Assembly: GCA_051453625.1 (NCBI GenBank)
Contig: JBOZIK010000001.1
Coordinates: 3,222,760-3,278,301, forward strand
DNA length: 55,542 nucleotides
From: Welwitschia mirabilis
Taxonomy: Eukaryota
Reading direction: 5' to 3'
Every line of letters begins with the position of its first letter. The first letter of the stretch is position 1. Positions 1 through 51,067 of the stretch are shown one piece after another. A model generated the notes under the pieces. The model was given only the letters and a program-made list of their open reading frames with translations. It made no database searches and was not told the origin of the DNA. The position numbers and the translations under genes were made by a program.

Positions 1-3000
1 CAATCTAAGATCTTTTAACCATTGAGAAAAACATCAACAATAAAGCATCTTCATTCAACTTAAAGTTCATGGACTTGTGAATGTTCTAAGATTGGGTGAA
101 TCCAATCTTACCACTAAAATGCCTAAGTCAAAAAACTAGTCATGGAAATAAAAACATAAATCAAGTTTAAAAAATAATCAAGTAATTCCATAATGACCTC
201 TAAAAGGAAACAGATAAGAGAAAATTCAAATGATTTACTCAATTAAGTCTAAATTTTTACCCATTAACTTTCTAAAATTCTTAAGCAGTTAGATCAAAAA
301 TTTTAATAGAGTTATAAAAATGTATTTTCATAAAATAATAGAAAAAATCATTATTTTATTGACTTTCATCCTTCTCATCATCCAGATGATCAAGACGATG
401 ATACACACAGGAAATAGAAATAGAATATAGAAGACTTATAGAAAAATAAATATAAAAAGTGAAAAAAGAGACTATCATCTACCTTATCATCTAGATGATA
501 GATTATTATTAAAGATAAAAAATTAAAAATTTAGATTATAAACAGAAATAAAAACTAAAAGTAGAAGAGTGAAAACAAAGATAATAAATAGAGATTATCA
601 AAATAGAAAGCTAAAAATCAAAATCAAAAGATCATGAAAGCTAAAAGGAAATATTAAAACAAGTAAACTTTATTTGAAACCTAAGATCTAATTCATACTT
701 TTATTGAATAAGAAAGAAAGAAAATAAAAGAAAAATGGTCTCAAGACATTTGTATTCTTTCAGAAAAATGAGATCTAAATTAGATATTCACCAATTGATA
801 AAACATAAAAAGTATGCAATCATTTTTCGGTAAAATCAATTGGAAGAAGAGAGAATAAAAAGATAATACTTAGATAGCAGAAATTTCAGAATTCAAATAA
901 GAGACAAAAGAATAATAAGTGTCATTGAAAAATAATCTCTTATGAAAACTTTGTGAATCTTGAGCTTCATTGGAAAATTCATGTGAAAAGAAATTTAAAG
1001 AAAGTTTTTAAGACAATTTTTAAGGATCTTTAAAATGTTTTCTATCATTTGATTTAAGACATGGATCTTTAAGAAGAAAAAAAGGTTTTTTCAATTTTGC
1101 ATAAGCACATGACAGTTTGTTTCTACAAGTATTAATGTAAGAGACAAAAAATTCATACAACTCATGGAAAAACAATCTCTTATCAAATGCATGAGATGAA
1201 GGATTTGAAACATAAATTGCATTTAGAGCTTGATGAACATGGAAGGCTTTATTTAAGATCTAAGGATTTGTAAGAAACTTATTAGGGTAAGAGATTAAGA
1301 TAGGTTTTAAATATCTAAGAAGCTATTTAAAATTTAATTTAAACCATGGATTGGGATTAAGAATATATGGTTTTCCCAGATTAAAGGTTCCAAGATATCC
1401 CAAATTTTATTTTGAAAAAGAATGATCAATGGAAGCACATGGTAGAGTTGACTTTGCAAATGAGAAAAAGATGTTACTTTTTGCACATGAAGTTTAAAAG
1501 GAAGAATTTGAAAGGTTTTTAAACTTAAGTACTCAAGATGATGTGGTTTATTATTTTTAAGGACAAGAATGTGATTTAGAAAGTTATTTTCTTCATTAAT
1601 TATTTCTTCTTTTTCTTTATGATTGATTGTTTCTTGCTTTTCTTTTTTATTTGGTTGAGGATCATTGCTTTTTTTTAAGTTGGTGGATTCCTCCAAAAGA
1701 TCATTAGAAAGATTATATAAAGGAAATCTCTAATTGTTTTCATCATTTGATGAAAGATATTTTAATGTTTCTTGGTTTGATTTCTCTTCCTCTTTGATTT
1801 TTTTCCTCTCTAAATAATTCCATTAACTCTAAACTATAATCCTCATTTGATTTAAGTTGATTAATTTCCATTGATTTCGTTTCAATGATGATTCCCCTTA
1901 ATTTCAAAAGTTAATCCTTTAGTATTGGTAAAACTCCTTCATACTTATAAAATATGTAAAAGTTTGGGATATGATCTAATATTTCAATGTCATCTTCTTC
2001 TTCTTCACTATTCTCATCATCTTGTTACATGTTATTTCTTTCATTAGAAGGGGAAATGTGATCATCATTTTTATCATAGATTAAAGAATTTTTAGATTGC
2101 TTATGAATGCACTTTTCATCTAACAAATGATTTTCTAATACCTCAACATCATCATCTAAATAGCCATTCTCATCTTCATTATTGAAAGAGATAGTAAAAT
2201 TGTCATTATCTATCCTTTGCTTATCTCCTAATGAGTATGATGATAAAGTTTGATCTAAAACTTATTCTCAATTTGAAAGAAAGAATCATAACCATTTATT
2301 CATAAGTTGTTATTATTTTCCTCAAGATAAGATGAATTAGGATAGTTTTGAGAAGTTGGCATTTGAAGAGATCCTTGATTTTGTAGCAGATTTTATTCAA
2401 TAATTACAACCACAGTTTCTATGAATTTGTTGGTATTTTAGTGGTGATTTTTTATTGAGTCCCTCAATTCTTTCATTAGATCATTTTCTTCTTTGTAGTA
2501 GTTCACGGGGATGGATGGAATGGGTAAAAGTTATTGTATGAGGTTGAATCTCTAAGATTTTTATTATTATTCATATATGGGTTTCTAAAAGGAAAGGAGG
2601 AATAATAAGATGGTTTAAAAGAGGAATGGACCCAATCCTATTCTCAACATAATTTTGTGTTGTTCTCTCTTTCTCTACTAAAAGCCCTATAAGTGTCTTC
2701 TTATCATCATCCTCAAATTATTTTTTTCCTTTTTTAGTAAGAATTTCCTGAAGTGTTTTATTACTATTATCCTCAGATTTGTTTTTACACCTTTTAATAA
2801 GAATTTTTTTATATGGTTACTTTTATCACTATTCATTTTTGAGAAGAATGGGAAGAAGAGGATCTAGTTCAAGATGAAGATAGGTGTTCAATGATGATTA
2901 GGTTTTAATGTTTTACAAATAAATAAGCTTGAAAATAAGATAATGTATGCACCTAGAGTTTGCATTCTTGATTTTATGTTGAAACTAAATAGTCTGTCTC

Positions 3001-4587
3001 TAATACTTTCTTCTAATAATAGCCCTCTTTTTTCTAGTCTTTTTCTAGACTAACAATGCCATAGTACTTGTAAATAAAGAAATAATAAAAAACAAATAAA
3101 AAACAACACTATCATCCTATCTATTGTGGAAACAACAAAAGGGATGACACACACAGAAACCAAGAAAATAGAAATAGAATAAAAAATTAAAATAGAAAAT
3201 GAAAAACTCATAACATAGGAATGTCATCCTCCTAGTTGTCTAGATGGCAAAGGAAACGACAGAGACTAATTTTATTATAGAAAAATTAAAATTCAAAAAT
3301 AAAACTAGAAATAAAATAGAAAACTAAAATTACACACTGTCATCCTATCTGTTGNNNNNNNNNNNNNNNNNNNNNNNNNNNNNNNNNNNNNNNNNNNNNN
3401 NNNNNNNNNNNNNNNNNNNNNNNNNNNNNNNNNNNNNNNNNNNNNNNNNNNNNNACTAGAAATAAAATAGAAAACTAAAATTACACACTATCATCCTATC
3501 TGTTGTGAGGATGACAGAAAGGACGACCACTATTTTTCTATAAAAAAATCAAAACTTAAAACTGAAATTGAAAAATAGCAAAAGAAAAAAAATAAAAACT
3601 AAGAACTTAAAAACTGAAAAAAATAAAAACCAAAAACCAAAAAACTAAAAACCAGAAAAATAAAAATTGAAAAATCAAAAAACCAAAAAAATATAAACCA
3701 CAAATAGAAAACCTATGAGATAAAACCTAATATAATATATAATGCAAAATGATCCTAATACTACTTGATTTTAGCCTTAACAAAGGCTGTCATTAATAAT
3801 CTATATTACCTAAGAAATTGTCATTAGATAAAGGGCAACATAGACTATAGGGGTCATTAGAAAATTTACAATGTAATATAAACATGAAAATAAAACAAAG
3901 TTTATATTAATAATAAGTAACAAGAATCTGGGTTACAAAATAGCTAGGTCTTAATGGAGGATACATAGCCCTTCATCAAGTCTACATTTTTTTACAACAC
4001 TTAAGATGGATATCTCATCCTTCAATCTCCCATTATGAGAATTTCTGATGCAACAAAAATAAGGAATAAGAGTCGAAGAGGGACTTATTTATAAGAAATC
4101 CCAGTAGAAAAATATAAATAGAAGGTATGACTAGGCAAACTTATAAATGAAATGGACAAAACACTCAAAGGTTAGTTATCAGAGTCAGTTATATATCAGT
4201 GTCAGCCTGGATGTCGTCTAGATGATGAAAGGGATGACAGTTCATCATAAAAGATAACTCATCAAGCATCTCTGTAGTTAATTTAGTATTCCACACTAGC
4301 AACTTAGCAGTGTTGTGATGCTACTTGTCATGGAGACGGTGGAGGAATGATGGTCTTCTTTGATCATTTTCTTGAGGATAAACTTAGCATTTTTATTAAT
4401 AATTCTTCTTTAAAGCTTTGTGCATTAGAATGTGCCTTTAACATATTAAATTTAAGTAAGAAATGCATATTTCCAAGATTTCCTATTGTATCTCCAAAAT
4501 CCTTAGAATTGCACCTAAGCTTGTGTAAAAATCCTACAAAATAACTTATAAAACCCTATTAAATAACCATAAATTGGCAGTGCAACA
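1..4587 (-). mobile_element. Athila-like Ty3/Gypsy 'family A' copy A1, non-autonomous/internally deleted, runs off the window start
   Basis: The reverse complement starts TGTTGCACTGCCAATTT at 4587, like the family-A LTR starts at 20983, 29189 and 52317. Region ~1-2900 is the reverse-complement homologue of ~24300-26500 (e.g. 2040-2260 vs 24887-25110). An integrase C-terminal 'KVNG' remnant lies near 250-275. Confidence 0.75.
3740..4587 (-). repeat. Partial 5' LTR of copy A1 (diverged family-A subfamily)
   Basis: TG start and recognisable homology to the family-A LTR up to the shared 'cctttgttaaggct' motif (~3775-3788 rc vs ~30092). The 3' end and PBS are not resolved. Confidence 0.6.
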
Positions 4588-7900: not shown

Positions 7901-10020
7901 GCATGATGAGTATCTTATCTAACATGATTAAGAAATTTATTGAAGTATTTATGAATGAATTTTTTATTTTTGATGAAACCTTCAACTCATGTATACTTAT
8001 CTAGAACTTGTTATTACATGGTACAAAGAAAAAAAAATCTCATTCTTAATTATGAGAATTATAATCTCATAGTTACAAATGATATAGTCTTATAACATGT
8101 GATTTATAGGAATGGGATAAAAATGGACCTTATCAAAGTTTAACTTATCAATCATCTTTTCATTATTTAAAATATTTAAGATGTAAGATATTTTCTTGGA
8201 TATGTAATTTATTGTGAAAGATGTATTAAGAATTCTCTAAAATATTAAAATCCTTGAGTTATCTTCTCATTAAAGATGTTTGTTTTAACTAGAACTATAA
8301 TTGTAAGAATACATTTAATAAATTAAAACATCTAATGACTTCATCTGCTATATTATAACCTCCTAGTTATTCTTTTTTATTTTGAGCTATTATGTAATGC
8401 AAGTAACTATGCTATAGATATAAATTTAGATTAATGAAAATATGAAAAACCATATGCTATTTACTATGCAAGTATAATATTACAATATCCTAAACTAAAC
8501 TAATAATAACTGAGAATGATCTCTTAGTAGTAGTTCTTTCCTTGGAAAAATTTAGATCATATTTTACAAGTTTAAAAAGTGTCATCTTCACTAATCATTC
8601 CAATCTAAAATACTTATTGAATAAGAAGGACTCTAAGTCTAGGTTAATGAGATAAATACTACTTATAAAAGAGCTTTATCTTAAAGTTAATGGTATATAG
8701 AGAGTGGAAAATGTAGTTACTGATCACCTATCTTACGTTAGGCCTAACTTCCTACCTCCATTAGATTCAATTCTCATAAGTGACTCCTCTCCTAATGAGA
8801 AAATTTTATTCTTCCAAAAAAAAGCATTTGTATGTTGATATTGCTAACTATCTTACCACTTGTGAACTCTCTAATCCTTTGGATAAATAAGATAAAAAGT
8901 GATTCTTACATAAGGTAAGTACTTTTTAATTGAACCCTACCTTCTTAAATAGCTCCTTGAATAAATAACACATGTGTGCATTCCATAATTTAAAACTTTA
9001 AATGTATTATAATTCACACATGATGAAGTGTGTGGAGGTAATATTTAGCTAAAAAGACTTCTCATAATATCCTTTCATATAGACTCTATTGAATAACTCT
9101 TTTTAAATATGTTTATGAATAATAATGTTACTACTTCGTAATACTAAAATAAGAGACAAGATATTCATCTCACATATTTTTAAGATTTGACCATTCAATA
9201 TTTGGGGTATAGAATTTATTGGGTGATTACCCCATGTTTTGAATAGTTGTACATATTAGTTTAGAAATATTACATCACTAAGTGATGTGAAACTATCCTG
9301 ATTAGGACTAACAATGTTAGAGTTATTGTGAGATTCCTAAAAGAACATATCTTATAGTGATTTAAATATTATAAAGTTATAATGAGTGATATATAAACTC
9401 ATTAACTTACTTTTACACTAACATATTGACCAATGTAATGGGAAAATTTGAAATAACTTACAAAGTTATAACACCTTATCATTTATAAACTCATGGTCAA
9501 GTAGAAGTTATGAATGAAAAGTTAGAAAGGATTCTCTAGAAAATAGTAAAGTCTAATAGAAAAGATCTCTTTCTCTATCTTAATGATTCTCTTTGGGTCT
9601 ATGGACTTCCTATAAGATCATTGAAATAATACCTATAGACTTGTACTTACGAAATTTTATTATTTTCTCTTGAAAATTAAATGCAAAGATTTTTGAGCAA
9701 TAAAATAGCTAAATAAAAACCTATATAAAGCCTTATAATTGAGGAAGCTTAAGCTAAGAGAACTTGAATGAATTATGAATGAAGTCCAATCATAAGAAGC
9801 ACATTTTTAGAAAATCCTTTAAACTAAAGGATCTAGTCATACTATCTGATTTAATAATTTAAAAATTTCTTGATAAACTTGTATCTACATGGATTAGATT
9901 CTTTAAAGTATTATAAGTATTTTTTAATGATGCTCTCAACATTTTAAACCTCAAGGACAACTATTCTTTCAAATTTAATAATCAAATACTTAAACATATT
10001 TATGAATCTACATTTCTATG
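4990..10020 (+). pseudogene. Degenerate Athila-type Ty3/Gypsy gag-pol (gag, protease, RT, RNase H, integrase)
   Basis: Motifs seen through many stops: gag 'LLPQFHGLDSQDFYEYIKEF' (~5038-5097) and 'RMKIFPFS'; protease 'QLVDYSTK...IVEDILI' and 'PLILRRSFLTT'; RT 'SFGLFNALAIF' and 'IEVFMNEF' (YxDD equivalent, ~7948-7962); RNase H 'ENVVTDHLS'; integrase 'TPYHL*THGQVEV' and C-terminal 'FKFNNQILK'. The order PR-RT-RH-INT is that of Gypsy. Confidence 0.9.
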
Positions 10021-11606
10021 CCATGACTTTGATCTTATCTACTTAGCTTAGAATTATAGGTAATAAGAAGAAGACATAAAAGAAGAAAACTTAACAAAAA
10101 AAAAAAAACAATATTAAGCAAAGTTAGAATTAGTGTCACTTAAGAAATGAAGTCTTGATAATGTTAAGTTTTATAATTTATTCTTGGATGAAATCTAGAA
10201 TTATGATAAGAACATAGATTATTTAGTTCACATACAAGACTTTAATCCTTTAGGTATCTTCTACTACTAATTTGATTAGGGACTCATTTGATGAATAAAC
10301 TCTAAAGAAAATATTTATGATTTTTTTATGTTTATCATACCTGATATTATGTATAGACTATAAACTTATTATGATTTTAAATAAATTCATATTAATCATT
10401 ACAAATTTAAAATTTTCTATTTTGAAGATATGACTTAAAACCTTCATATGATATGGAGGAAAAAGATCATATGAAAACATATAAGATGAATAACTTCATG
10501 GTACACATTCGTACTATTAGATAAGATACTTTATATGTACAACTTCTTTTATTTGCATGGAAAAAATATATGCTATTTAAATTATAGGCCTTCATACCAT
10601 TATGATCAATTATGAGAATGACATATGTCTTTGTTGATAATTAATGGTGAAAATTAGCTAACTTATACAAGAATGTTTTAGACATCCTATTTCTAGAAAA
10701 TTAGAACATATGTAATTATCATTTAGCATGGGGAATGGCTAGATGATATATTTTATGCTATAAGTGGACATCTTTTATATTACCACATTTATAATTTACT
10801 TTTTCTTAGATTTGCTACATGGAATACTTTATAATTCATATATCATGATTTATTTCATTGATGAGAAAGCTAGGATGTTTAATTTGGTATATGCATAATG
10901 AAATTAGATGTGATTTTTAAAGGACCTTTTCTTTTTTGATGAATTATTTCTTTTATAATCATGATGAACCTATAGCTATTAAGCAAGTGAACAACAGGGA
11001 TACATTGTATTACATGTATGCTAGGAATGAGATTAAATATCATCATAATAATATTAAAAGTATTATTTAAAATAAAATTTTAGAATGTAAAGTTATTTTT
11101 GGTTTATTTATTTAAGTGAATTACCATATTGTTTTTATTATTTTTCATTTTAGTAGAATAAGACCCCTTGCTTAGGGGAATAAATACAATTTAAAACCTT
11201 ACCTCATTGACAACACCATGAGTAATGCTTTTTAATGATTTAGATTATATTCATAAACCTAGATATCATTTATTATTAATTATTATAATTATTTTTTTAA
11301 AAAAAGGTATGTATATTAAGCTAGAAAATGTACATTAGGGGCGAAAATGCCTAAGAATAATAGGACAATTAAGCTGTTCAAAAAAGGGAAGTAGTTTACT
11401 AGCTGGTAAAGAGGGAATTAAGATACAAACCAAAATGGGGATGAAATCACCTATAGTCACAAGAATCTTCCTATCTAGTAGAGCAAGCATAGTAAAATAA
11501 GAAAAAACATATTACTGCTGACAGACTGGGGGCAAAAATACCCCCTTAAGATTAAAAGTTATAAAAAAATTCAGTTCTAGTGAGGAATAGACTTAAACAG
11601 GGAGGG

Positions 11607-12835
11607 TTAAAACCATCTATAAAATGGGAACATGTTATCATGATTATGGTCAAGAAGGAATTGACCCAAATCATCAGAGAGGACTTTAAATGCTTGATTT
11701 ATCTCCTTAAATTCTATGACACTTGTTGGATTTTTTTCTGGATGAAGACAAAGGGCTTTCTTCTTATAACTCTATTTAACGCTATGAGACAGGGCTCTAT
11801 AAGAGAGCCCTAATGTGATGACGGGATCTCTCTTCAGTTTCTGAATAGTTGCCAGTGACACCTTCCATCTAGCTACATTCATGTTAATGTCCTCCTATGG
11901 TTGAGGTCAAATTTCCAATGAAGAAAAATCTGAAGTGGAGTTTTATGAAGAGCTAGGGCTTAAGGCTAAAGTAGGGGAGGGCTAAGCATACTTATCTCAC
12001 TCCTGAGAGTTAGGTGATGGTTGATCCTGAGCCAGTTCATAGGCTATGCTGGAGTAAGGCTCCTTAACTATCTTTTGTTGGATTGGGAGTGAAGATGTCT
12101 CTCCTAAATGATCTAGGGACGAAGTCATCCATTTCTTACTAGGGTTGCCATGCACAGTGGATTCCTTTGGAATAGGTTTTCTTTCAAAGGAGGTTCTTCT
12201 TACAGAGGTTTTCTTAGGAGGAGTCTAGTGAGGATGATGACTAGGGGATTGGGGAGGGACTTATCTTGCACTTATTTCTTATGCTGCTCTTTAAGGGACC
12301 AAAAATAATCCTAAGTATCTTAAGGAATCCTTTTGTTTAAGAACTTGGATAAAAAAGAATGGCAGGTTTACCTGACATCCCAAGTTAAGAGCTTTGAAGA
12401 AAGCAAAATGAATACCTAAAAGTTTAAAGTAATTCCTTGATTAGATGAAGTAAATCACAAGTTCTACACCTAGTCCCTAAAAGAGCAATAGTGCCTTCTT
12501 AGTAATGTGCTCGCTGGGCAGTTTAGGAACCCCACCGAGGAAAAAGTAGAGTGCTTTATGTTGCTCTCTACTTTTAAATGAAATTCGCTTACCTTCTGTA
12601 GGGATATCCAGTATCCTGGAGAGAGAGAGTCTTTAGTGATTTTTATTAGACTTCTTCACAACATGCTGCATCCTTCTTTCTATCATTTGTAGAAGGGGGA
12701 GATATCAGTCCTCTAGTCTCCTCTAAGCTTATGCAGAAGGGGTCTTCACCCCACCGCCTATACTTTTTCTCATAGAGCAGGGCATTCTTTGAAGAGGCTT
12801 GAACTAGAAGGCTTAATTATTGATATGATCCTCAT
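11607..12835 (-). pseudogene. LINE-borne extra ORF ('ORF3'): env-like/Transposase_32-like domain + Ser/Pro linker + DnaJ J-domain
   Basis: ATG at 12835-12833 to TAA at 11609-11607. One frame throughout except a 2-nt slip in a (CT)n run near 12620-12630. Internal stops are mostly explainable as CAA/CAG/CGA/TGG transitions. N-term 'VG*RPLL...SPFYK...IKITKDSLSRILDIPTEG...ALNLGCQVNLPFFFIQVL'; C-term is a J-domain. Confidence 0.75.
11648..11828 (-). pseudogene. DnaJ/Hsp40 J-domain remnant
   Basis: 'DPVITLGLSYRALSHSVK*SYKKKALCLHPEKNPTSVIEFKEINQAFKVLSDDLGQFLLDH' matches the J-domain pattern (LG..., YK/RKLAL..HPDKN, FKEI..A..VLSD). HPE lies at 11744-11736. Confidence 0.88.
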
Positions 12836-13963
12836 CGTGACTTTGATTTGGAAGTGAAGGTAAATGATTCTCATTGTTGTATTTATAGAAAAGCATAGGA
12901 GACATTATTAAAAATTAAATTATTTTTGACCCACTAAAATCTGCAAAAACATCATGTGAATCCCATCCAATAAATGCATGTTAGGGCATTACAGGTTTGA
13001 TAGTACTTCATAATTATGGATATTAATTCCTTAATCCAAAAGTAGTGATGAAAAAAATGCTGTGCTCTTTTTGAATTGGACTAGAAAATGGGATAGTTAG
13101 AGTCTACTTCAAAATCCCCTTGCTTGAAATCCCCTTTTGAGTAATTGATCTCTAGTTAAAATTCTTTGGTAATCTTTTAACCAGTAAAAAACCTTAATTT
13201 TTTCTAGAATATATCCCTTTCAATACTTCTTATATGCATCCTGTTTTTTATACTTTTTTAGAAGGATCTTCTTGGTTAAATCAGACTGACAAATATTTAA
13301 GTCACAAAGAAGTTGTTGAATTTTGCTGAGATGTTTTCTTAGATAGGACTCCCTATGATCAATTATTCAATCTTTGTATTTGTAATTAATCAAATCACAC
13401 CAAGGTTTATCTCCTTCTTTTAGTCTCTTTAAAATATTACTATGTAATTTTTGGATTTTTGAATTCCCCAACCTCCTGATTCCTTTGGGTAGAAAATAGT
13501 CCTTCATTTGCAAAGATAAACTCAGTGGTGATCCTTTTTTCCTAAACAAATAAAGGCTTTTAAGATTCTATTAATTTTTTATATGATATTTCTTGGGGCA
13601 GGGAGAGAGTAAGGGGTGAGGAGGAACCATAACAGAAGCTGTGTACTAAAAAGAGGAAATTAAGCAAGAGTTTGTGAAAATTATTTTAGCTTTGGAGGAG
13701 AGAAAGTTATTTTACTATAAGCTACACCACCTTTGGATGGATTTCAAGATGTAATTCTAGGTATTTGTCTTATGCTAATTTCAAATTGGGATACCTAGGT
13801 AGATATCCTGTAGATCTCCTAGCCTTGTACTTAGGATTCAGGTGATTTTTCCCCCTCTGTTACATTTTTTGCTTAAAATGTGTATTCTTGATTTGTTTCA
13901 GTTATTGTGTAACCCTGTTGCCATTGCAAAGATGTTCATAGCATTTTTGATTTCTTTTCTTAC
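12832..13963 (-). pseudogene. LINE ORF2 C-terminal part (RT thumb, zf-RVT region)
   Basis: rc translation shows, in canonical plant L1 ORF2 order: 'FAMATGLHNN*NKSRI', 'YLGIPI', 'FLSSKAKIIFTNSCL', 'KAFICLG', 'YPKESGGWGIQ', 'WCDLINYKY', 'KIKVF..RILTRDQLLKRG', 'RF*WVKNNLIFNN'. Confidence 0.9.
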
Positions 13964-14484
13964 TTATAATTAGTATTTTAATTATATATTTGATTATAAC
14001 TTAATACATTAAATGAGCTTAAGTAAAAGATAAAATACATAAAATCAAAATTTCACTTTATTATTTCACTCATTTTCTTTTGAAAAGTTAACTCTCCTTA
14101 TGTGTTATAGCTACCTATTCCATAACAAAGCCCTTGATATTCTAATGTCATGTATACTTTTCTCAACTATCTATTAATACATTTAGTAGCACCACTACTA
14201 TAATAATGAGTGCTATTGCTATTTTAAAATTTTAGTTAATGTTTCTCCTCTTAAATTTGAGCTATAATAGCCCTCTGCCCATTTCCACCTACATCTCCTA
14301 CATTTGATAGTTTTTACTAATACTATCATTAGTTACATTAATGATACCACTCCATTTTCTCATAGACTTCTTAGCTATTGCCATCTTATGAGGTAGGATT
14401 GAAAATTTCATTATGAAGATGGCATTCAAACACTTGCTATTACACTATATAACTACCTATACTAAAGAAGTTGGATGTAAGAAG

Positions 14485-14681
14485 TATTGGATCTAAAGAT
14501 CCATAATGCCCAAGAACTGGGAGAAGTTTCTTAGGAGCATGCAAGATTGACATTTAAACCAATTCAAAGTTTTCTTTTCAGAAATAAAAATATATACAAA
14601 TCTCATGATGGAAATTAGGGAAAAGAGAGAAAATGGGAAGTGGTTGTAACAACCCACTTTAAAATAGGAAAATATCCAACA
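14485..14681 (-). repeat. 3' LTR of the three-LTR element
   Basis: TATTGGATCT...ATCCAACA; adjacent PPT GGGGGGATT (rc of 14682-14690). Confidence 0.9.
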
Positions 14682-14799
14682 AATCCCCCCTGATGACAAA
14701 TCTAAGAATTAGATTTTCATCATATTCAAAGTGCTAGAACATGCTTCTAGCATAGTGATTCATATAAAATTTATCACATAAGTATGTACTAATTATTAT

Positions 14800-14912
14800 A
14801 AGGTGGAATAACTTAGGATAACTTGGCATAACTCAAAATAAAGTGGGATAACTTGGGACAAAGTGGGACAACTTAGGATAACTTGGAATAACTTAGGACA
14901 AAGTGGGACAAC
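14800..14912. repeat. 10-bp tandem array (ACTTRGGAYA / AAGTGGGAYA); second copy at ~16940-17048
   Basis: About 11 consecutive 10-mers, directly visible, at the same position in both internal regions. Confidence 0.85.
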
Positions 14913-16612
14913 CACAATGATGTGAAATAACCATTACAAGGGACATACCTAGCATGGAACTAATCCAAGAAATTTTTATATAAAACAATATTACAAGAAG
15001 TATCCCATACCACTTCTTACAGTATCATTTTACATAAAATTGCATATCACATAAATTGGTTAGGACAAGCCCTCAATCTAACTTTTACTTTGGTGGGGGT
15101 TGGTAAATTTTACCTTATAAAATACAATATTTATGCCCCTATAAAATAATAATTCCTTTTACAATTATGTTTCTACAAAATGATATTAATAACTTGGCCC
15201 CTCCCCCTCCTAACGGATAGCATTTTTTAATATACTCCCATTTAACATAATAAAGAATAATTTTAATATCATGTTATCCTTAAACGTTTATCCTTATCTC
15301 ATCTCATCACATGAAGCTCCATGTTAGCCTCTTTCTGTGTCTCCATATGGCTTATTATAGCCTCATTGAATCTAAAGAGCATTATAGTAGTCTGTTCAGA
15401 ATGCACAACCATTAGCTCATTGACCACCCTATAATCCTTAATATGTGAATTCATCATTATTTCCTAGTAAATAGCATCGCCCCTAGCCAACTGCATCTGC
15501 ATCAAATGTGATTCCTCTACATACAAAAATAGTCTAGTCTTTTGACTAAAATAACCAAACACAACATGCTAAATGATTTCCGTTAGCCCATAACTACATG
15601 ACTTTAAAATTGCAAAGTCTGAAGTAAGCTTCAAAATGAAATAATTCTCACCCTCAATTTGCTTCTCATCGATGCACTTAGTGTGGGCAAATATGATAGT
15701 TATCGATCTGGGATTTAGGCCTTATAGGGTATGCTAGAGAGCCTTATAGGTCTCTTGGATGCTTGTGAAGTGAGTCATGATGTGTGACACCATGCCAATT
15801 TGCTGTTATAGCTTGTGCACATTTTTTTTTCTATTGATCACTACTTCTATGTACCACATGTTAGGCATCATTTACCATAGTATGAATCTACTAGTCTTCC
15901 ATGCCTACATCTGATTAATGAGATTTTTATTGACTCCATGATCGATCACTTGAAAAATGCCCAGTTTTCATAGGTGCTATAGATCTCATGTCTAATTTGG
16001 CTTTACTGGACACCATTGGTAAGACATACAAGCCTTTTGTCTACTTCGCCATTATAGGTCACCAAGGATCTACCTGAAAAAAAATCTTCTCAAGACTATT
16101 TTTTTAAAAAATATCTCAGATTTAGATTTCTTTTTGATCTGCTACAAATCAAGTTTGTTGCAAATCTAAAGATGAATATCTTGAACTCTAATGTATGTCT
16201 CACTTAACAAAAATATATGATGTAGATAACAATGACTATAGAATGTACCGATCAAAGTTAATCTACATGCATCTGAGTCTCAATGCTTAAAATGCTAGCA
16301 TCCTTAATGTAGATGAAGTTTAGCATGGCTAACACATTAAGATTGAAGCCTTGAATCTCTGCATGTAAATTGGTACCTTCCACAGCATAAATTCTCTAGA
16401 TCCTTTTAGGCTACAGAACCACTTGATGTGCTTGAAAAACTAGGACTCTCTTTGCACTACACTAGAATTCCACCATGCTATTCTGGTTGTGATTACTACT
16501 ATGGTTCTTTTATGGCATTGAAAAATTTGTCCTTATCTTTTATGCTACATAGGATTGATGTGTTAAAATTATGAGGCTTCTCTTCTCTATTCAGATTCGC
16601 TCTAATATAATT

Positions 16613-16820: not shown

Positions 16821-17440
16821 AACCCCACCTTAATGACAAATCTAAGAATTACATTGTCATCATATTCAAAGTGCTAGAACATGCCTTTAGCATAGCAATT
16901 CATATAAAATTATTAGATAAGTGTGGACTAAGCACTACAAAGTGGAATAACTCAGGACAACTTGAGATAGCTTAGGACAAATTAGGACAACTCAGGATAA
17001 AGTGGGATAACTCAAGCTTGGAATAACTTGAGACAAAGTGGAATAACCAAAACCATGTGGACTAACCATGAAAGGGACACACCCAAGAAATAAGATACAC
17101 CTAGCATGGGACTAACCCAAGAAATTTTTATATAAAACAATATTACAAGAAGTGTCCCATACCACTTCTTAAAGTATCATTTTACATAAAATTACATACC
17201 ATATAAATTAGTTGGGACAAGCCCCCAATATAACTTTTACTTTAGTGGGAATTGGTAAATTTTACCTCATAAAATACAATATTTATACCCCTCTCAAATT
17301 TCCTTTCATAATAATGTTTTTATAAAATAATATTAATAACTTGGGCTCCCTTTAACCAATACCATTTTTTAATATAATCCCATTTAACATAATAAAGGAT
17401 AATTTTAATATTATATCATCATTAAACATTTATTCTTATT

Positions 17441-18530
17441 TCACATAACCACACAATGCTCCATGTCAGCCTCTCTCAGCCTCTTCATATGGCTCAGTAC
17501 ATTTTCATCGAATCTAAAGAGTGTTATGGTAGTCTTCCCAAAATGTGGAACCATTAGCTCATCGACCATCCTATAATCCTTAATATGTGAGTTCATCATT
17601 GCTTCCCAATAAATGACATTGTCCCTAGCCAACTACATCTATGTAAAATGAGAATCCTCTAGATACAATAATAGTTTAGTCTTTTAGCTAAAATAATCAA
17701 ACATAACATGCTGAATGATTTTCATCAGCCCATCACTGCATGACATCAAAATTGCAGAGTCTATAGTAAGCTTTAAAATAAAACAATCCTCATCTTAATT
17801 TTCTTCTTGTTGATGCACTTGGTGTAGGCGAACATGTTGGTCATCAATCTAGGATTTAGTTCTTGTAAGATATGCTAGAAAAGCCTTATAAACCCCTTGG
17901 ATGCTTGTGGAGTGAGCCATGACATGTGGCGTCATGCCAATTTGCTATTGTAGCCTACACACATTTTGTTCCTACCTATTACCATTTATATGTACCACAT
18001 ATTGGGCATCATTTATTATAGTATGAATTTGTCAGTCTCCCATGCCTACATCTAGTCAATGAAATTTTCATCAAATCTGTGATTAATTACTTGGAAAATG
18101 TCCAATTTTCACAAGTGCTATAGATCTCGTGTCTAATTTGGCTTTGCTAGACACCATTGATAAGGCATTCAAGCCTTTTGTATACTTTGCCATTGTGATT
18201 CACCAAGGGTCTACCTGAAAAAAAAAAAATCTCCTTGAGACTAAGTTTTTAAAAAATATCTTAAATTTAGACCTTTTTTCAATCTGCTATAAATTAAGAT
18301 TGTTGCAACTTCAAAGATGAAGATTTTGATCTCTAATGTGTGTATTACCTAACAAAAATACATGACAAAGATAATAGTGACTATAAAATGCATCGATTAA
18401 AGTCAATTAGCATGCATCTAAGTCCCAATGCTTAAAATGCCAACATCCTTAATGCAGATGAAGTCTAACATGGCTGACACATTAAGATTGAAGCCTTCAC
18501 TCTCTGCATCTAAATTGGTGCCTTTTACTA
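17441..18530 (-). pseudogene. PPR (PLS-class)-like coding fragments inside the internal region; paralogous copy at ~15300-16380
   Basis: 'EGFNLNVSAMLDFICIKDVGILSIGT*MHA' and 'ARDNVIYWEAMMNSHIKDYRMVDE...MKRLREADMEHCVV', plus 'GLNPRSITI' and 'FAILKSCS' in the other copy, resemble PPR L/S/P motifs. Heavily eroded. Confidence 0.45.
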
Positions 18531-31285: not shown

Positions 31286-32022
31286 TTTTTTTGAAAAATA
31301 AAAAACCAACTTGCAAACTCTATTTATTCATAAAAAGTACTTATAATATTGAGTAGAAATGTTCCCTTATAGTAGAATTATATTGCAAACACTAGAGATT
31401 ATCAAAAAAGAAAGATTAATTTTTGTAAAAGGAATATGCAATAGCAAATAAAAGAAATAAAAGAGAGTAAAAAGGAGTAATAAAATGGATGAAGCTATAT
31501 ATGAAAAACTCCTATATTTTTAGAAGAGATTCTAATGATATCTCTACACTAAATGCTCTCAAGTTTATCTACCAGGATCTTGAAAGCTTGTTTAACTTCT
31601 TTGAATGCTTCAACTACTTTAGGCTCTTATTTGGGTAAAGTTTGAGAGAAGGTTTCCTATAAATCATTTTGTTAATGCTTTTGGAGTGACTAACTTCTAG
31701 CATGAGGAATTGGCATTTCTGCATCCCTTTAATTATTGTAAATAGAACTAAGCTCCTAGCCTTCTCTAAGTTAAGCTCTTGAACCTCTAGTTCTTGGCCT
31801 AGCTCATGTTGAGACTTACCTTGATTATGTTAAATCTCCTCCTCTTATGGATCATTGTGATACTTTACTACACACATTTTTACTTCTTTTGGATTTTTTA
31901 GAGGCTATATCCCTTCTTCAAAGCCTAAGGGCAGAGCTATTTCAGCTTGTTCTTTAAAGGAAAAAATTAGAACTACTTCATTGATCTAATTATGGTCTAA
32001 GCTGCTTTGTAGATTTCTTCTA
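31286..32022 (-). mobile_element. 3' end of a second J-domain-bearing LINE-like element, cut by the SIRE insertion
   Basis: J-domain remnant followed by a T-rich 3' UTR, AATAAA (rc 31323-31328) and A7 (T7 at 31286-31292). No ORF2 is visible because the element is interrupted at 32023. Confidence 0.65.
31555..31790 (-). pseudogene. DnaJ J-domain remnant (second copy)
   Basis: 'ELNLEKARSLVLFTIIKGMQKCQFLMLEVSHSKSINKMIYRKPSLKLYPNK/[frameshift]/PKVVEAFKEVKQAFKILVD'. YPNK (tac cca aat aag) is two transitions from HPDK. Confidence 0.8.
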
Positions 32023-33590
32023 TGAGGATTGTTGATCTCATAGGAAAGGGATGATTTAATTGTAACAAATGAAATTTAAATTAACAATAGAATAAAATTC
32101 ATAATAAAAAAGCACCTTACTAAGATAATGTGAATTCCCAACCTGGGTACATCCATACACAGAGGGTGTTTTTTACTCAAACCTTTAGATATTCTTGACC
32201 TACAAGAAAATAGTGGTTTTCTAGTGTACCACTAATATTATAATAAATTGGAGTATCCTTGTAAAGCAACACTCTCTTCCCTAGAAGGGAATAGCAGTTT
32301 TCATAAGTACATGATAAACCTTATAATAATGAAAGTCTCCTTACAAGGAAATACTCTCTTCCCTCTAAGGAAATAGTGGTTTTCAAAATTGCATCATGAA
32401 TCTTAAAAGAGTGAAAGTCTCCTTGCAAGATAGCACTCTCTTTTCCATAAGGAAATAATGGTTTTCTATTTTGCTAATAATCTTAGAACAAACAAGGGCT
32501 CACAGGCACTATCTCAAATGCACACCTATACAAGGATTTCCTTACATATAGATTGATTCAATAATGGACTTACAAGAATATTCAATAATAAGATAGTTTA
32601 CAATGTAAAAACAAAAGTATAATACAATAATAAGATCTATCTTTGATGAAGATTTGAGAGTCTTGATGTTATTGTTTTCATCATGAGTATAAGTGAAGAA
32701 TGTAGTAATGAAGATCCAAGAGTGAATAATGAAATCAATGAAAGCTCCTTTTTAAATGATGACTTTGATTTTTCATGAGGAGTTCCTTTCACTTGTGTGT
32801 TCTTTATTCTTTATCTGATTGTTATTTTTCAAGGTTTAAAAAGATGCATATTTGTTAAGGTTTCAAATATTCTTATTTATTTCATAATATTGAGGCTTTT
32901 TATGGTCAAAGAAGATCTAGCCATTTGATCTTGAAAGGTAGTAATTTAATTTTTTAATGGTTGTGTAATGGATAGAAAATGTTTAAGTGTTATTCACGTA
33001 ACTTTAGTTTTTGTCAATATGAACTTTGATATGAGATGTCTTCATTTTTGTAGAGGTCTACTAATAGTCAAACATGTTTACCTTGTAGATGTCTTCAATC
33101 AACTTACTCAGATTTCAATGAAACTTGCTCTATATTATCTTTGGACCCTTGTTATCATGAATTTGCAATGTACAAGTTGATAACTCAATTGAAACATAAG
33201 ATATTAGTTAAAAACTAAATTAACTCTATTACCTATTTCAACTCAGTATAGATGTCTTCAAACATATAGTCATCTTCATCTGTGTTAGGTCTAAGTTTCA
33301 GCATAATTGTCTTAATGAGATAGTTATCTTAAGCGTGTGACATGTTTTTTAATACATTTAAGACATCTTCAATTTCCTAAACATATATACTAGATACGTC
33401 TTCTATTTTTCAGATATCTTTAAACAACTAATTTTATAGTTTAACATTTGTTCCTTTTTATGAGATGTTGTCTTTAAAGATCCATCATGGTCTAAGGCCT
33501 ATCAATGTCTAATTTTCTTGGTATTGACCTATCTAAAAAATGATATAAAATATTTGATAAGTAAAATTATAAAAACTAGATTTACCAACA
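32023..33590 (-). repeat. SIRE 3' LTR with ~58-bp tandem units (~32205-32470) and AGAYRTCT motifs
   Basis: rc starts TGTTGGTAAA at 33590; colinear with 49328-51067. Confidence 0.88.
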
Positions 33591-43500: not shown

Positions 43501-45985
43501 TCCAACTCATACCATAGCTATTAAATTAGGAATGAACCTTATCCCTAATGAGAATAATGAGCTTATCCCTATTAAACCTATTATAAAATGAAGGATGTGT
43601 ATTAATTATAAAAAACTAAATGCTATATCTAGAAAAGAGCATTTTTGTCTTCCTTTTCTAAATCAAATTTTAGAATAACTCATAGGACATTCTTTTTACT
43701 ATTTCTTAAATGGTTGCTTAGGTTATAGCCAAATTGAAATTGCTACTAAAGATCAAGATAAAACCTTCTTCACTTATCTCTATGAAATATTTGCTTACAA
43801 ATGAATGCTCTTAGGCTTATGCAATGCACTTCCACTTTCCAATGTTGGATGTTTGGAATCTTCTCTGATTCAGGTTTTGAATTATTAATGGATGACTTTT
43901 CAATTTATGAAACTTCATTTAACCATTATTTAAGTAACTTAGAACATGTCCTTAAAAGATGCATTACAAAATGCATTGTACTCAACTAGGAAAAATACCA
44001 CTTTATGATAAATCAAGGTATAGTTTTAGGACATGTCATCTCGAAGGAGGGAATTTAGGTAGATCCTATTAAGATATCATTGATCACATACCTATCAACC
44101 TCCTAGAAACAAAAAGACATTAGATCTTTCTTAGGGCACACAAGATATTATAGGCAATTCATTAAGTATTTTATCAAAATTTCTAAACATTTATGTGATC
44201 TTTTAAGCAAGGATGCTTTCTTTGAATGAAATCTAGAGTGTCAAAATGAATTTGAATAAATTAAAACTAACTTCCACATCCATTATCCAACCACCTAATT
44301 AGAAGTTATCTTTTGAACTTATGTGTTATGTAAGTGACTTTACAATAGAAGCAATGTTAAGATAAAGAGTTGATAAAAATCAAACTGTAATTCACTATAA
44401 TAGTAAAACCTTAAATAATGCTCAAATCAATTACACTATCATAGAGAAGGAGCTTCTAGCTATTTTCTTTATCTTTAAAAAATTTAGGCAATATCCTTTA
44501 GGATCTAAGGTAATTATTTACATTGATCACTCAACCCTTAGATATCTTTTTGTTAAAAAGGATTCAAAACATATCTTATTAGATGGATCCTCCTTCTTTA
44601 AGAATTTGATTTACATATTAAGAATATGAAAGGCTTTAATAATGTTATTGTAGATTACCTTTCACACATATCTCCAAATAATCTATAAACATTTTTACTT
44701 ATTGATGATACTTTTCCTAACAAACATCTCTTTCAGTCAAAGAAATACTTGGTTTGTAGATATTACTAGTTATTTTGTTTATAAAACTATTCCTTTCCAC
44801 TAGATCATTAATGATTAAAAGAGGTTATTAAGCTAATATTTCTTTTTGGATAGCCCCTACCTTTTTAAATATTACTCAGATCAAGTCATTTACAAATGTA
44901 TCCCTCAAAGTAACATCTAAGAAATACTTAAACATTATCATTTTGAGTCTTGTAAGGCTTACTACTTAGCTAACAAGACTGTAATAAGAATCCTCTAATT
45001 CAGTTTTATTAGTGATCAATTTTTAAAGACTCCTATCTTTACTATAAATCTTGTGATAAATATTAATATTTAGGAAGTCTTTCTCATAGAAAAATGATAT
45101 CATTAAATCCCAGCCTGTCTCTTGAACCCTTCGACATATGGGGAATTGATTTATAAGGCCCTTATCCATCATCTAGTGGGCATTAATGTATTCTTATTTA
45201 TATTAACCATGTAGTTAAATGGATCAAAGCTTATGGTTGTCAACAAAATGATGCTAAAACTATAGTTAAATTCTTTAAAAATAATGTTTTAACTCATTTT
45301 AATTATCCACATGTTTTAATTAGTGATGAAGAGACACACTTTTGTAATAAAATATTCAATAACCTTCTCACTAAATATGGGGTTACACATAAAGTTGCAA
45401 CATCTTATCACCTTTAAACAAGTAGCCAAGTTGAGGTTACACATAGGGAACTTAATAAAATCCTTTAAAAAGTAGTAAACTTAATATAAAAAGACTGGTC
45501 TTTTAGACTTAACAATGTCTTATGGGTGTATTACATGGCTTATAAAACACCCTTAGGGATGTTACCTTTTTGATTAATCTATAGTAAATCATGTCAGTTA
45601 CCTATATAACTTGAGCATAGGGCTTACTAGGTGATCAATAATATGAACTTAGACTTAGAGGTCACAAAGAAAAATAGCGCCATACAACTTAATGGACTAG
45701 ATAAAAATTAGAAGTGATGGCTATAATAGCATAAGAATAAATAAGGATAGGATGAATAAGTTTCATGATTAATATATCCTTAGAAAAACTTTTCAGAAGG
45801 GAAAACTAATCTTACTATGTAACTCACACTTACATCTTTTTCTAGGAAAGCTAGTAGCTTAGTGGAAGGAATCTTTCTTAATAAAAAAAAGGTTTTGCCA
45901 CATAGAGTTATTTTCATTGAAAATACCAAAAACAATTAACTCCTTAAAGTTAACGAACATCATCTAAAACATTATCACTCATTTC
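40580..45985 (+). pseudogene. Athila B gag-pol remnant (protease presumably in the 42095-42989 gap)
   Basis: gag 'ESEDPYLHHKEF' and 'FISKFFPTHK'; 'VKINIPLLEAIK*IPSYDKILKDLCT'; RT 'MCINYKKLN' and 'FELLMDDFSIY' (~43885-43899); RNase H 'YTIIEKELLA'; integrase 'PFDIWGID', 'LISDEETHFCN', 'KVNEHHLKHY'. Confidence 0.92.
42095..42989. other. Assembly gap (others at 3355-3454, 18825-18853, 23758-23857, 27024-27123, 28731-28885, 40635-40644, 46664-46763, 49504-49603)
   Basis: Runs of N. Confidence 0.99.
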
Positions 45986-49327: not shown

Positions 49328-51067
49328 TGAAGGATCATTAAAATTAGAGGAAAGGGGTGAATGAATTTCATCAAATAAATTTAAACTAATAATAAAATGG
49401 AAATGCATAATAAACAATACCTTACCAAGATAATATGGTTCCCTAACCTAGGTACGTTTACATACAGAGGGTAGCTTCTACTCACACTTGTAGATATTCT
49501 TGANNNNNNNNNNNNNNNNNNNNNNNNNNNNNNNNNNNNNNNNNNNNNNNNNNNNNNNNNNNNNNNNNNNNNNNNNNNNNNNNNNNNNNNNNNNNNNNNN
49601 NNNAAGATAATATGGTTCCCTAACCTAGGTACGTTTACATACAGAGGGTAGCTTCTACTCACACTTGTAGATATTCTTGATCTATAAGAAAATAGTGGTT
49701 TTTTAGCATACCACCAATATTACAACAAATAAGAGTCTTATTACAAGGTAGCATTTTCTTTCCTACAAGGAAATAGTGGTTTTTATAGGTGCACTACGAA
49801 CCTTACAATAGTGAGAGTCTCCTTGCAAGGTAGTACTGTCTCCTCTATAAGGGAATAGTGGTTTTTATAAGTGCATTATAGATTTTGCAATAGTGAGATT
49901 CTTCTTACAAGGCATCACTCTCTTTTTCATAACAAAATAATGGTTTTCTAGATTATCAATAATCTTATAACAAATAAGTACTCATAGGTACTATCTCAAA
50001 TGCACATCCATTCAATATTACCTTATAAAGAGATTAATTCAATAATGGACTTACAATAATATTCAATAATAAGATAGTTTACAATGTAAAATCAAAAGTA
50101 CAATGTAATAATAAGTCTATAGATTTAGCTTTAATGAATATTTTATATCCTTGTTGTTATTATCATTATAAGTGTAAATGAAGAATGTAGTAATGGAAAT
50201 CCAAGAGTGAATGATAAAAGTAACAAAAGATTCTTTTAAAATGATTCCTTTAATTATTTTTGAGAATTTTATTTCACCTATGTGTTCTTTATTCTTGATC
50301 TGATCATTATTTTCTAAGATTTAAAAGATGAGTATTTATTGAGGTCTGAATTCTTCTTATTTATTTTGTGATGTTGAGGCTTTATATGGTTAAAGATGAT
50401 CTAGCCATTTAAGCTTGAAAGTAGCCATTTAACTCTGTAATTATTGTGCAACAGATAGAAAACATTTAGGTGTCAGGTGTGTAACTTTATTTTTTATCAA
50501 CATGAACTTTAGTCCAAGACATATTCATTTTTATAGATATCTACTAATAGTTAGATGTATTTACCTTGTAGACATATTTAGTCAACTTACTCATATTTTG
50601 ATGAAACATACTCTATATATCTATGGACCTTTATGATCATGTATTTGCAATGTACAAGTTGATAGCTTATTTAAAAAATAAGATACTAGTTAAAAACTAG
50701 ATTAACTATGTTACTTATTTCAGCATAGTATAAATATCTTCAAACATGTAGACATCTTCATCTATGTTAAGTTTAACTTTCAGCATAGTTATCTTAATGA
50801 GATAGTTGTCTTAAGTCTGTGACATGATTTTTGATACATTCAAGATTCCAATTTCCTACATGTCTTCACCAGAGATGTATTTAATTTTCCAGACATCTTT
50901 AGACAAGTGATTTTGTAGTTTAGCATTTCATCAGTTTTATGAGATATTGTCTTTGAAGATTCATCATAGTCTAAGGCCTATTAATATCTAATGTTCTTAG
51001 TATTGGCCTATCTACATAATAACATAAAATAGTTGATAAGTAAAATTATTAAAACTAAATTTACCAA
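49328..51067 (-). repeat. SIRE 5' LTR (terminal 2 nt displaced by the A3 insertion; contains a gap)
   Basis: Colinear with 32023-33590. Ends TTTACCAA where the sister LTR reads TTTACCAACA. Confidence 0.88.

What the first reader, a model, noticed from the sequence alone, without database searches (positions are those of the whole stretch)
11292..13963. L1-type LINE carrying a third ORF that ends in a DnaJ J-domain
Seen: between the ORF2 C-terminus and the poly(A), inside the candidate TSD, lies a ~409-codon degenerate ORF (12835-11607) ending in 'SYKKKALCLHPEKNP...FKEINQAFKVLSD'. Known: plant L1s have ORF1 and ORF2 (APE, RT, zf-RVT, sometimes RNase H). J-domains stimulate Hsp70 via HPD, polyomavirus T antigens encode their own J-domain, and hepadnaviral RT activation needs Hsp40/Hsp70. 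Inference: this is a LINE lineage with an accessory Hsp70-recruiting protein, for example for RNP assembly/remodelling or anti-silencing. I do not know of such an architecture being described, but I could not search the literature. The ORF track misses it because of deamination stops.
Basis: partly seen in the sequence, partly recalled or inferred. Interest (0 to 1): 0.92.

Follow-up and report, generated by a model that had tools for sequence, protein, structure and literature searches.

The report
Plant LINE relic carrying a J-domain
A dead, front-truncated copy of an abundant plant LINE retrotransposon carries a genuine but broken Hsp70 co-chaperone (J-domain) sequence behind its reverse-transcriptase gene, an arrangement I found no description of, though a working third gene is not shown.

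Summary
The J-domain is real: Pfam DnaJ scores 36.7 bits against a cut-off of 27.8, and it aligns without gaps to 41 solved J-domains. The L1 ORF2 tail upstream is plausible but heavily decayed (zf-RVT 17.2 bits, below cut-off). Contigs from three public DNA runs show that the whole stretch, about 11270-14000, is a multi-copy repeat with sharp edges. Other copies run on across the ORF2-end/'ORF3'-start region. So this is a family feature, not a one-off.

The claimed 409-codon ORF is not supported by this copy. It has 19 stops against 25.4 +/- 4.8 expected (P about 0.11). Its first 330 codons match nothing in Pfam or in 1.84 billion representative proteins. The motif reads HPE, not HPD. PF20167 was not found, and the TSD cannot be verified.

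A second, divergent J-domain relic lies at 31560-31735. It differs from the first mainly at third codon positions.

My odds:
- J-domain once encoded by active elements: about 0.4
- Amplified passenger fragment: about 0.3
- Mosaic of separate repeats: about 0.15

Interest is moderate. The decisive test is a survey of copies in the source genome.

The parts
12800..13963 (-). 5'-truncated, heavily decayed C-terminal part of an L1-type ORF2. It covers the post-RT region, the zf-RVT zinc-binding region at about 13264-12990, and the ORF2 end at roughly 12900-12800.
   Evidence: zf-RVT PF13966 scores 17.2 bits, E 0.0081, below the cut-off. No RT or APE domain lies upstream to 20000. Other copies match up to 13939-13943 (table 8). 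ORF2 motifs were read by eye and compared with recalled plant L1 patterns.
11847..12836 (-). Body of the proposed 'ORF3': about 1 kb between the ORF2 end and the J-domain. GC is 33-44% and it matches no known family.
   Evidence: No Pfam hit at E <= 10. No phmmer hit among 1.84e9 representatives outside the J part. No word-index hit at E <= 10. Stop depletion is not significant. It is multi-copy, with 23-91 distinct contigs at the listed positions.
11628..11846 (-). J-domain relic. HPE lies at 11744-11736, an internal TAG at 11774-11772, and the frame ends at the TAA at 11609-11607.
   Evidence: PF00226 scores 36.7 bits, E 4.7e-9. There are 36 phmmer hits, all to this part, and 41 PDB J-domains. 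Codons were read.
11311..11627 (-). 3' untranslated-like region. It is T-rich on the sense strand and multi-copy.
   Evidence: Composition. Depth is 240-3647 in X1 and X2. No similarity to the C-terminal part of a plant J-protein.
11270..11310 (-). A-rich tail with a (TTAATAATAA)n-like simple repeat; the 3' edge of the repeated unit.
   Evidence: Sequence. TRF row 11270-11293. The depth step lies at about 11270.
31560..31735 (-). Second, more decayed and frameshifted J-domain relic, outside the finding. It reads ...LKLYPNK..., with TAC CCA AAT at 31637-31629.
   Evidence: tblastx E 0.017 against the window. 13 of 36 J-proteins hit this bin, against 1-3 hits in other bins. Nucleotide similarity to copy 1 is significant only in the J part. 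No Pfam hit, because the frame is broken.

Best explanation
The stretch 11270-13963 (minus strand) is one dead, 5'-truncated insertion of a multi-copy plant L1-type LINE family. In that family the 1.6 kb downstream of ORF2 contains a host-derived J-domain coding module.

I think it most likely that active members of the lineage translated this module. That could have been as a third ORF or as a short J-only ORF starting near the ATG at 11881. A J-domain protein made beside ORF1p/ORF2p would then recruit host Hsp70 to the element's own proteins or RNP. A less likely role is countering silencing of methylated copies.

Shown: the J-domain, the L1-like tail, the same strand and order, multi-copy status, and continuity across the junction in other copies.

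Inferred: that it was ever translated, its reading-frame limits, Hsp70 recruitment, and any benefit to the element.

This copy itself is non-functional: it has stops, reads HPE, and lacks RT.
For: - The J-domain passes Pfam's threshold. It aligns gap-free with DNAJA1/dnj-12-type J-domains with only one stop in 73 codons. The neighbouring zf-RVT is decayed to 17 bits.
- It is multi-copy. At 80% likeness, 10239, 13194 and 5748 contig pieces from runs X1, X2 and X5 were laid on 10600-14600. Most are under 90% alike. The flank 14084-14485 has depth 0-20.
- It is continuous in other copies. Loose-end consensus sequences at 12937 (47, 73 and 70 records) and at 12833 (34 records in X5) read, by eye, like this window's own sequence with transitions. 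Joints 12775>12937 and 12821>12984, and an 85%-alike contig over 12834-13053, bridge the ORF2 end and the 'ORF3' start. Joints from 12453 to 12515-12690 bridge the body.
- The number of distinct contigs peaks on the J core: 79-81 contigs, depth about 2700 at 11716. It falls to 3 contigs at 11780 and 20-23 at 11822. Another peak lies at 12342-12475. Such peaks are expected if subfamilies diverged under protein-level constraint.
- A second J relic in the same 55 kb shares 13 of 25 residues with the first. Of those 13, 11 use different codons. Differences by codon position are 10/5/17, P = 0.016. Its YPN is two transitions away from HPD.
Against: - The J frame is not significantly depleted of stops.
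- The 330-codon body has no relatives in Pfam or in 1.84e9 representative proteins.
- No predicted protein combining these parts was found.
- The motif reads HPE. D to E is not a deamination change, and position 11736 is not among the 40 listed majority differences. That list was cut from 1120, so this is weak. It means HPE may be the family state.
- GC differs between the J-bearing part (33-44%) and the ORF2 tail (28-30%). This fits a late capture.
- The second relic shares only the J part with the first at the DNA level. No L1 sequence lies next to it.
- The third-position test is biased, because the block was found by tblastx.
- Depth sums k-mer abundance, so the peaks could reflect blocks shared with other repeats.
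Confidence: 0.4

Rival explanations
1. Amplified passenger. A master L1 picked up a fragment of a host J-protein mRNA or gene in its 3' region, by 3' transduction or template switching. It then spread the fragment as untranslated baggage. The J-domain never served the element.
For: - The linkage and copy-number evidence is the same as for the best explanation.
- There is no significant ORF.
- The body is unrelated to any protein.
- HPE is not visibly corrected in the listed majority differences.
- GC is higher than in the ORF2 tail.
- No intact protein was found in the databases.
Against: - A neutral passenger should not show a conservation peak on the J core, next to a trough 60 nt away.
- It should not show third-position-biased divergence from a second relic.
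- Nothing else of a host J-protein gene is recognisable before or after the J-domain. A captured mRNA piece would be expected to retain more.
Confidence: 0.3
2. Mosaic or nested repeats. The L1 tail and the J-bearing segment belong to different repeat families. They lie side by side here, and in some other places, through nested insertion or a shared block.
For: - Depth along the unit varies more than 10-fold and does not rise steadily toward the 3' end, as simple 5' truncation would predict.
- In X5, 28 contigs end at about 12729 with dissimilar AT-rich continuations (agreement 0.5), which could mark an element edge.
- GC steps at about 12900.
- The second J relic has no L1 next to it.
Against: - Dozens of contigs continue through 12937 and 12833 with sequence like this window's, and joints bridge 12775-12937.
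- Both outer edges of the repeated stretch coincide with a single insertion-like unit.
- The strand and order fit a single LINE.
Confidence: 0.15
3. Single-copy relic of a host J-protein gene or processed pseudogene that merely lies beside an L1 fragment.
For: The J-domain is of an ordinary cytosolic class A/B type. A plant J-protein aligns over 113 residues at 31% identity.
Against: - The J segment is multi-copy: 79-81 distinct contigs, depth 2700-4800 against a flank depth of 5-7.
- Only the J-domain matches host proteins.
- A second relic lies 20 kb away.
Confidence: 0.03

Closest known systems
Plant L1 LINEs with an acquired RNase H domain in ORF2 (Smyshlyaev et al. 2013, as described in passages of PMC5203782)
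   Same: A plant L1 lineage that added a foreign protein module downstream of RT and zf-RVT.
   Different: The RNase H domain is fused in frame within ORF2 and is enzymatically tied to reverse transcription. Here the module is a co-chaperone domain about 1 kb beyond the ORF2 end, and its frame is unproven. The main text of PMC5203782, a survey of 125 plant genomes, has no occurrence of 'DnaJ'. Its supplementary domain tables could not be seen.
Insect R1 LINEs with a tobamovirus-like SF1 helicase domain at the ORF2 C-terminus (PMC4686597; abstract seen in the listing)
   Same: Capture of an accessory domain at the 3' side of a LINE's ORF2, carried by a family.
   Different: The host group, LINE clade and domain all differ. 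There the domain is in frame and intact in the described elements.
LINE 3' transduction and chimeric retrocopies (recalled knowledge; no call)
   Same: Host sequence lies between the LINE body and the A-rich tail, which is the rival reading.
   Different: Transduced pieces are usually unique to one or a few insertions. This one is present in many diverged copies.
Virus-encoded J-domains of polyomavirus T antigens (PMC3973671 abstract, listing: large T antigens are thought to need HSP70; the J-domain itself is recalled)
   Same: A selfish genetic element carrying its own J-domain to use host Hsp70.
   Different: That is a DNA virus with an N-terminal J-domain and intact HPD whose function has been shown. 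There is no homology beyond the domain.
Arabidopsis SUVH1/SUVH3-DNAJ1/DNAJ2 anti-silencing complex (passage of PMC6711733)
   Same: J-domain proteins that raise expression of methylated loci. This is a conceivable benefit for a methylated retroelement.
   Different: These are host genes recruited by methyl-DNA readers. No SUVH-binding part is recognisable here. The link is an analogy only.

Membership tests
J-domain (Pfam PF00226 DnaJ) | Profile match above the curated threshold | tested here: met
   36.7 bits against a cut-off of 27.8, E 4.7e-9, profile positions 6-56 of 63.
J-domain (Pfam PF00226 DnaJ) | Helices I-IV in order, alignable to solved J-domains | tested here: met
   Gap-free alignment of query residues 11-67 to dnj-12 and DNAJA1. 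41 distinct PDB sequences match at E <= 0.01.
J-domain (Pfam PF00226 DnaJ) | HPD tripeptide between helices II and III | tested here: not met
   This copy reads HPE (CAT CCA GAA), with E aligned to the D of HPD. The second relic reads YPN, two transitions away from HPD. The family state is unknown.
J-domain (Pfam PF00226 DnaJ) | Stimulates Hsp70 ATPase | not testable with these tools
   This needs biochemistry on an intact natural copy.
Plant L1-type LINE | APE and RT domains in ORF2 | tested here: not met
   None lie in this copy or upstream to 20000 on the minus strand. This fits 5' truncation but leaves the clade untested.
Plant L1-type LINE | zf-RVT region at the ORF2 C-terminus | tested here: inconclusive
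   17.2 bits, E 0.0081, below the 27.5 cut-off, profile positions 10-57 of 85. The rest lies in another frame.
Plant L1-type LINE | A-rich 3' tail and target-site duplication | tested here: inconclusive
   There is an A-rich simple-repeat tail at 11270-11310. No TSD stands out from the AT-rich background.
Plant L1-type LINE | Many dispersed copies sharing the 3' part | tested here: met
   Between 5748 and 13194 contig pieces were laid per DNA run, with sharp depth edges at about 11270 and about 14000.
LINE with a functional third ORF | Open frame downstream of ORF2 | tested here: not met
   This copy has 19 stops in 410 codons, P about 0.11 against shuffles. Other copies could not be read.
LINE with a functional third ORF | Module linked to ORF2 in other copies | tested here: inconclusive
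   Short contigs chain across 13053-12729 and 12690-12453. No single long record spans from ORF2 to the J-domain.
LINE with a functional third ORF | Purifying selection among copies | tested here: inconclusive
   There is a third-position excess between the two relics (10/5/17, P 0.016), with ascertainment bias. Conservation peaks on the J core.
PF20167 putative plant transposon protein | Profile match | tested here: not met
   No hit at E <= 1 or at E <= 10 on the body alone.
Host J-protein gene or processed pseudogene | Similarity to a host protein beyond the J-domain | tested here: not met
   All 36 phmmer hits cover only query residues from about 293 to 406. The post-J region scores within shuffles against a plant J-protein.

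The most novel reading that the evidence does not exclude
A plant L1 lineage acquired a J-domain gene. It kept this gene under selection as an accessory ORF downstream of ORF2, across diverged subfamilies. That gave the retrotransposon its own Hsp70-recruiting co-chaperone, for RNP assembly or for escaping silencing. No LINE was found described this way in my six literature searches.
Probability: 0.3. Interest if true: 0.8.

Novelty: new variant of a known kind. Interest (0 to 1): 0.5.

Why it matters
LINEs are known to pick up accessory domains such as RNase H, esterase and helicase. A co-chaperone module would be a new kind of accessory. It would point directly to Hsp70 as a limiting host factor for plant L1 retrotransposition, in parallel with viral J-domains.

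Even under the passenger reading, a J-domain fragment spread to hundreds of genomic sites matters for annotation. It inflates apparent 'DnaJ-like' gene families. For example, sunflower repeat libraries list 18 DNAJ-like sequences (PMC3852528, passage).

Tried and rejected
- **Whole genome.** None is held for this window.
- **Protein searches.** The word-index searches all found nothing: the whole 'ORF3', the ORF2 tail against longer proteins, and the body alone at E <= 10. The copy is so decayed that exact 5-residue words are scarce, so these blanks are weak evidence.
- **Metagenome scans.** One scan with peptide patterns and one with a 24-nt stretch found nothing.
- **Copies in the window.** blastn and nhmmer found no second DNA-level copy.
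- **A second L1 beside the second J relic.** tblastx hinted at a zf-RVT-like match at 32169-32368. I rejected it, because that stretch is an 80-bp tandem repeat and Pfam finds nothing there.
- **Host J-protein origin beyond the J-domain.** I considered that the region after the J-domain is the membrane segment of a DNAJB12-like protein. Alignment scores fall within shuffles, so I rejected it.
- **RNA.** No RNA holder was listed. In run X17, 45 reads were laid, 40 of them under 90% alike, so they come from other copies. They say nothing about this locus.
- **ESM Atlas.** I did not pursue it.
- **Wide Pfam scan of the plus strand.** The first attempt was too large. The smaller scan of 10000-15000 found no family.
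- **Other negatives.** Rfam found nothing in the window. The bacterial-type promoter and terminator scan is irrelevant here.
- **Literature.** Six searches found no description of a LINE with a J-domain. Supplementary tables were not available.
Full report
**Setting**

The window is AT-rich (25-28% GC) and has no long ORFs. No whole genome is held for it, and Rfam finds nothing. A strong DUF620 match with in-frame stops (257 bits) and the zf-RVT trace point to a plant. The finding lies on the minus strand.

**What is there**

I read the three minus frames of 11292-14099 with X at stops. Pfam gives two results:
- DnaJ (PF00226): 36.7 bits against a cut-off of 27.8, E 4.7e-9, at about 11813-11670.
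- zf-RVT (PF13966): 17.2 bits, below the 27.5 cut-off, E 0.008, at about 13264-13121.

The J relic aligns without gaps to dnj-12 and DNAJA1 J-domains. In all, 41 distinct PDB sequences match at E <= 0.01, the best at 1e-9. It carries one internal TAG. Its motif reads HPE where HPD is expected.

Upstream of zf-RVT the translation shows motifs I recall from plant L1 ORF2 C-termini. I saw these by eye and did not test them. No RT or APE domain lies further upstream, so the copy is 5'-truncated. The plus strand of 10000-15000 has no Pfam family.

**The claimed long ORF**

- The J frame from 12836 to 11607 has 19 stops in 410 codons. The other two frames have 29 and 38. Shuffles give 25.4 +/- 4.8, and 11% of them have 19 or fewer. 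The trend is in the right direction but is not significant.
- The first 330 codons match no Pfam family even at E <= 10.
- A phmmer search of 1.84 billion representative proteins returned 36 hits at E <= 0.001. All are confined to the J part, query residues about 293-406.
- Three word-index searches found nothing. The copy is decayed enough that these blanks are weak evidence.
- A plant J-protein (P0015) aligns at 31% over 113 residues, but the stretch before the J-domain is low-complexity. Nothing after the J-domain resembles it.

**Is it a family feature?**

I laid contigs from three DNA runs, carrying two organism labels, on 10600-14600 at 80% likeness.

- 10239, 13194 and 5748 pieces were laid. 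In X1, 5882 of the 10239 were under 90% alike.
- Depth over 11270-14083 is in the hundreds to thousands. The flank 14084-14485 has depth 0-20.
- In X5 the 3' edge steps from 7.5 to 630 at about 11270.
- The changes are mostly transitions (720 of 925 listed places in X1), which fits deamination decay.
- Contigs are short (about 200-350 nt), so no single record spans from ORF2 to the J-domain.

The links between segments chain together as follows:
- Loose-end consensus sequences at 12937 (47, 73 and 70 records) and at 12833 (34 records in X5) read, by eye, as this window's own sequence with transitions.
- Joints 12775>12937 and 12821>12984, and an 85%-alike contig over 12834-13053, bridge the ORF2 end and the start of the proposed ORF3.
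- Several joints from 12453 to 12515-12690 bridge the body.

The unit is therefore repeated as a whole in at least part of the family. It is not a one-off.

Two caveats apply:
- Depth varies more than 10-fold along the unit and does not rise steadily toward the 3' end.
- In X5, 28 contigs end near 12729 with dissimilar continuations.

A mosaic of blocks shared among repeat families is therefore not excluded.

**Hints of constraint**

- The number of distinct contigs peaks on the J core: 79-81 at 11716, with depth about 2700. It falls to 3 at 11780 and 20-23 at 11822.
- A second peak lies at 12342-12475, and further peaks lie in ORF2. Such a pattern is expected if diverged subfamilies kept protein motifs. 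Block-wise differences in copy number could mimic it.

A second J-domain relic lies at 31560-31735 on the minus strand:
- 13 of 36 J-proteins hit it, the best at E 0.011. Other 300-nt bins get 1-3 chance hits.
- It is frameshifted and reads YPN (TAC CCA AAT), two transitions away from HPD.
- At the DNA level it resembles copy 1 only in the J part: score 42 against a null maximum of 37, 0 of 300. The pre-J part shows none (147 of 300) and the post-J part is marginal (14 of 300).
- In the 25-codon tblastx block, 13 residues are identical and 11 of these use different codons. Differences fall 10/5/17 by codon position (P 0.016). The block was found by protein similarity, so this test is biased toward that outcome.
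- No L1 sequence is recognisable next to this relic. An apparent zf-RVT-like match there lies in an 80-bp tandem repeat.

**Against a working accessory gene**

- The motif reads HPE. D to E is not a deamination change. Position 11736 is not among the 40 majority differences shown, but the list was cut from 1120, so this is weak evidence.
- The TAA at 12293-12291 is likewise not listed as differing, although the neighbouring position 12295 is.
- GC is 33-44% in the J-bearing part against 28-30% in the ORF2 tail. This suggests a relatively late capture.
- No intact protein of this kind is in the databases searched.

**Verdict**

The long ORF, the TSD, PF20167 and HPD do not.

It is a family-level L1 plus J-domain architecture, but a functional third ORF is unproven.

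| Reading | Odds |
|---|---|
| J-domain once translated by active elements | about 0.4 |
| Amplified passenger | about 0.3 |
| Mosaic or nested repeats | about 0.15 |
| Host pseudogene | about 0.03 |
| Other | remainder |

The proposed mechanism, Hsp70 recruitment to the L1 RNP or anti-silencing, is inference. The nearest analogies are viral J-domains and the SUVH1/3-DNAJ1/2 complex (passage in PMC6711733).

**Literature**

Six full-text searches found no LINE with a J-domain. A survey of L1 in 125 plant genomes has no 'DnaJ' in its main text (PMC5203782, find mode). Its supplementary domain tables could not be seen and might bear on this. A sunflower repeat catalogue lists 18 'DNAJ-like' sequences among its repeats (PMC3852528, passage), which may be a related phenomenon. 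Repbase, Dfam and REXdb could not be consulted.

Noticed in passing
window 15326-15928 and 17794-18060, minus strand: Two DUF620 (PF04788) relics with in-frame stops (257 bits and 64 bits) lie in a roughly 2.1-kb tandem duplication just upstream of the LINE copy. Similar short ORFs recur near 14500, 16700 and 18800.
   Followed up: partly
window 31560-31735, minus strand: A second, frameshifted J-domain relic reads ...LKLYPNK.... At the DNA level it shares only the J part with the first relic.
   Followed up: yes
window 32180-32470, and 32100-32200 versus 49381-49719: About four copies of an 80-bp tandem repeat lie here. Next to them is a stretch encoding ...PRLG.HIILVR..., which recurs twice around the N-gap at 49504-49603. 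I saw this by eye and it is another repeat family.
   Followed up: no
window 11002-11135: A separate multi-copy block lies in the 3' flank of the LINE copy. Depth is 1040-1362 in X1 and X2, and 63-66 contigs diverge at 11115.
   Followed up: no
window 11652-11735: Eleven RNA-seq reads of run X17 match the J core at under 90% likeness and share flanks at 0.98 agreement. They come from one transcribed, degenerate copy elsewhere in the genome, not from this locus.
   Followed up: partly
window 44366-44629, plus strand: An 87-codon open stretch looks like the RT/RNase H junction of a Ty3/gypsy-type LTR retrotransposon. I saw this by eye and ran no Pfam scan on it.
   Followed up: no
window 14798-14931 and 16937-17014: Tandem repeats of 20 to 40 nt (consensus unit ACAAATTGGGATAACTCAGG-like) lie inside each unit of the 2.1-kb duplication.
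   Followed up: no
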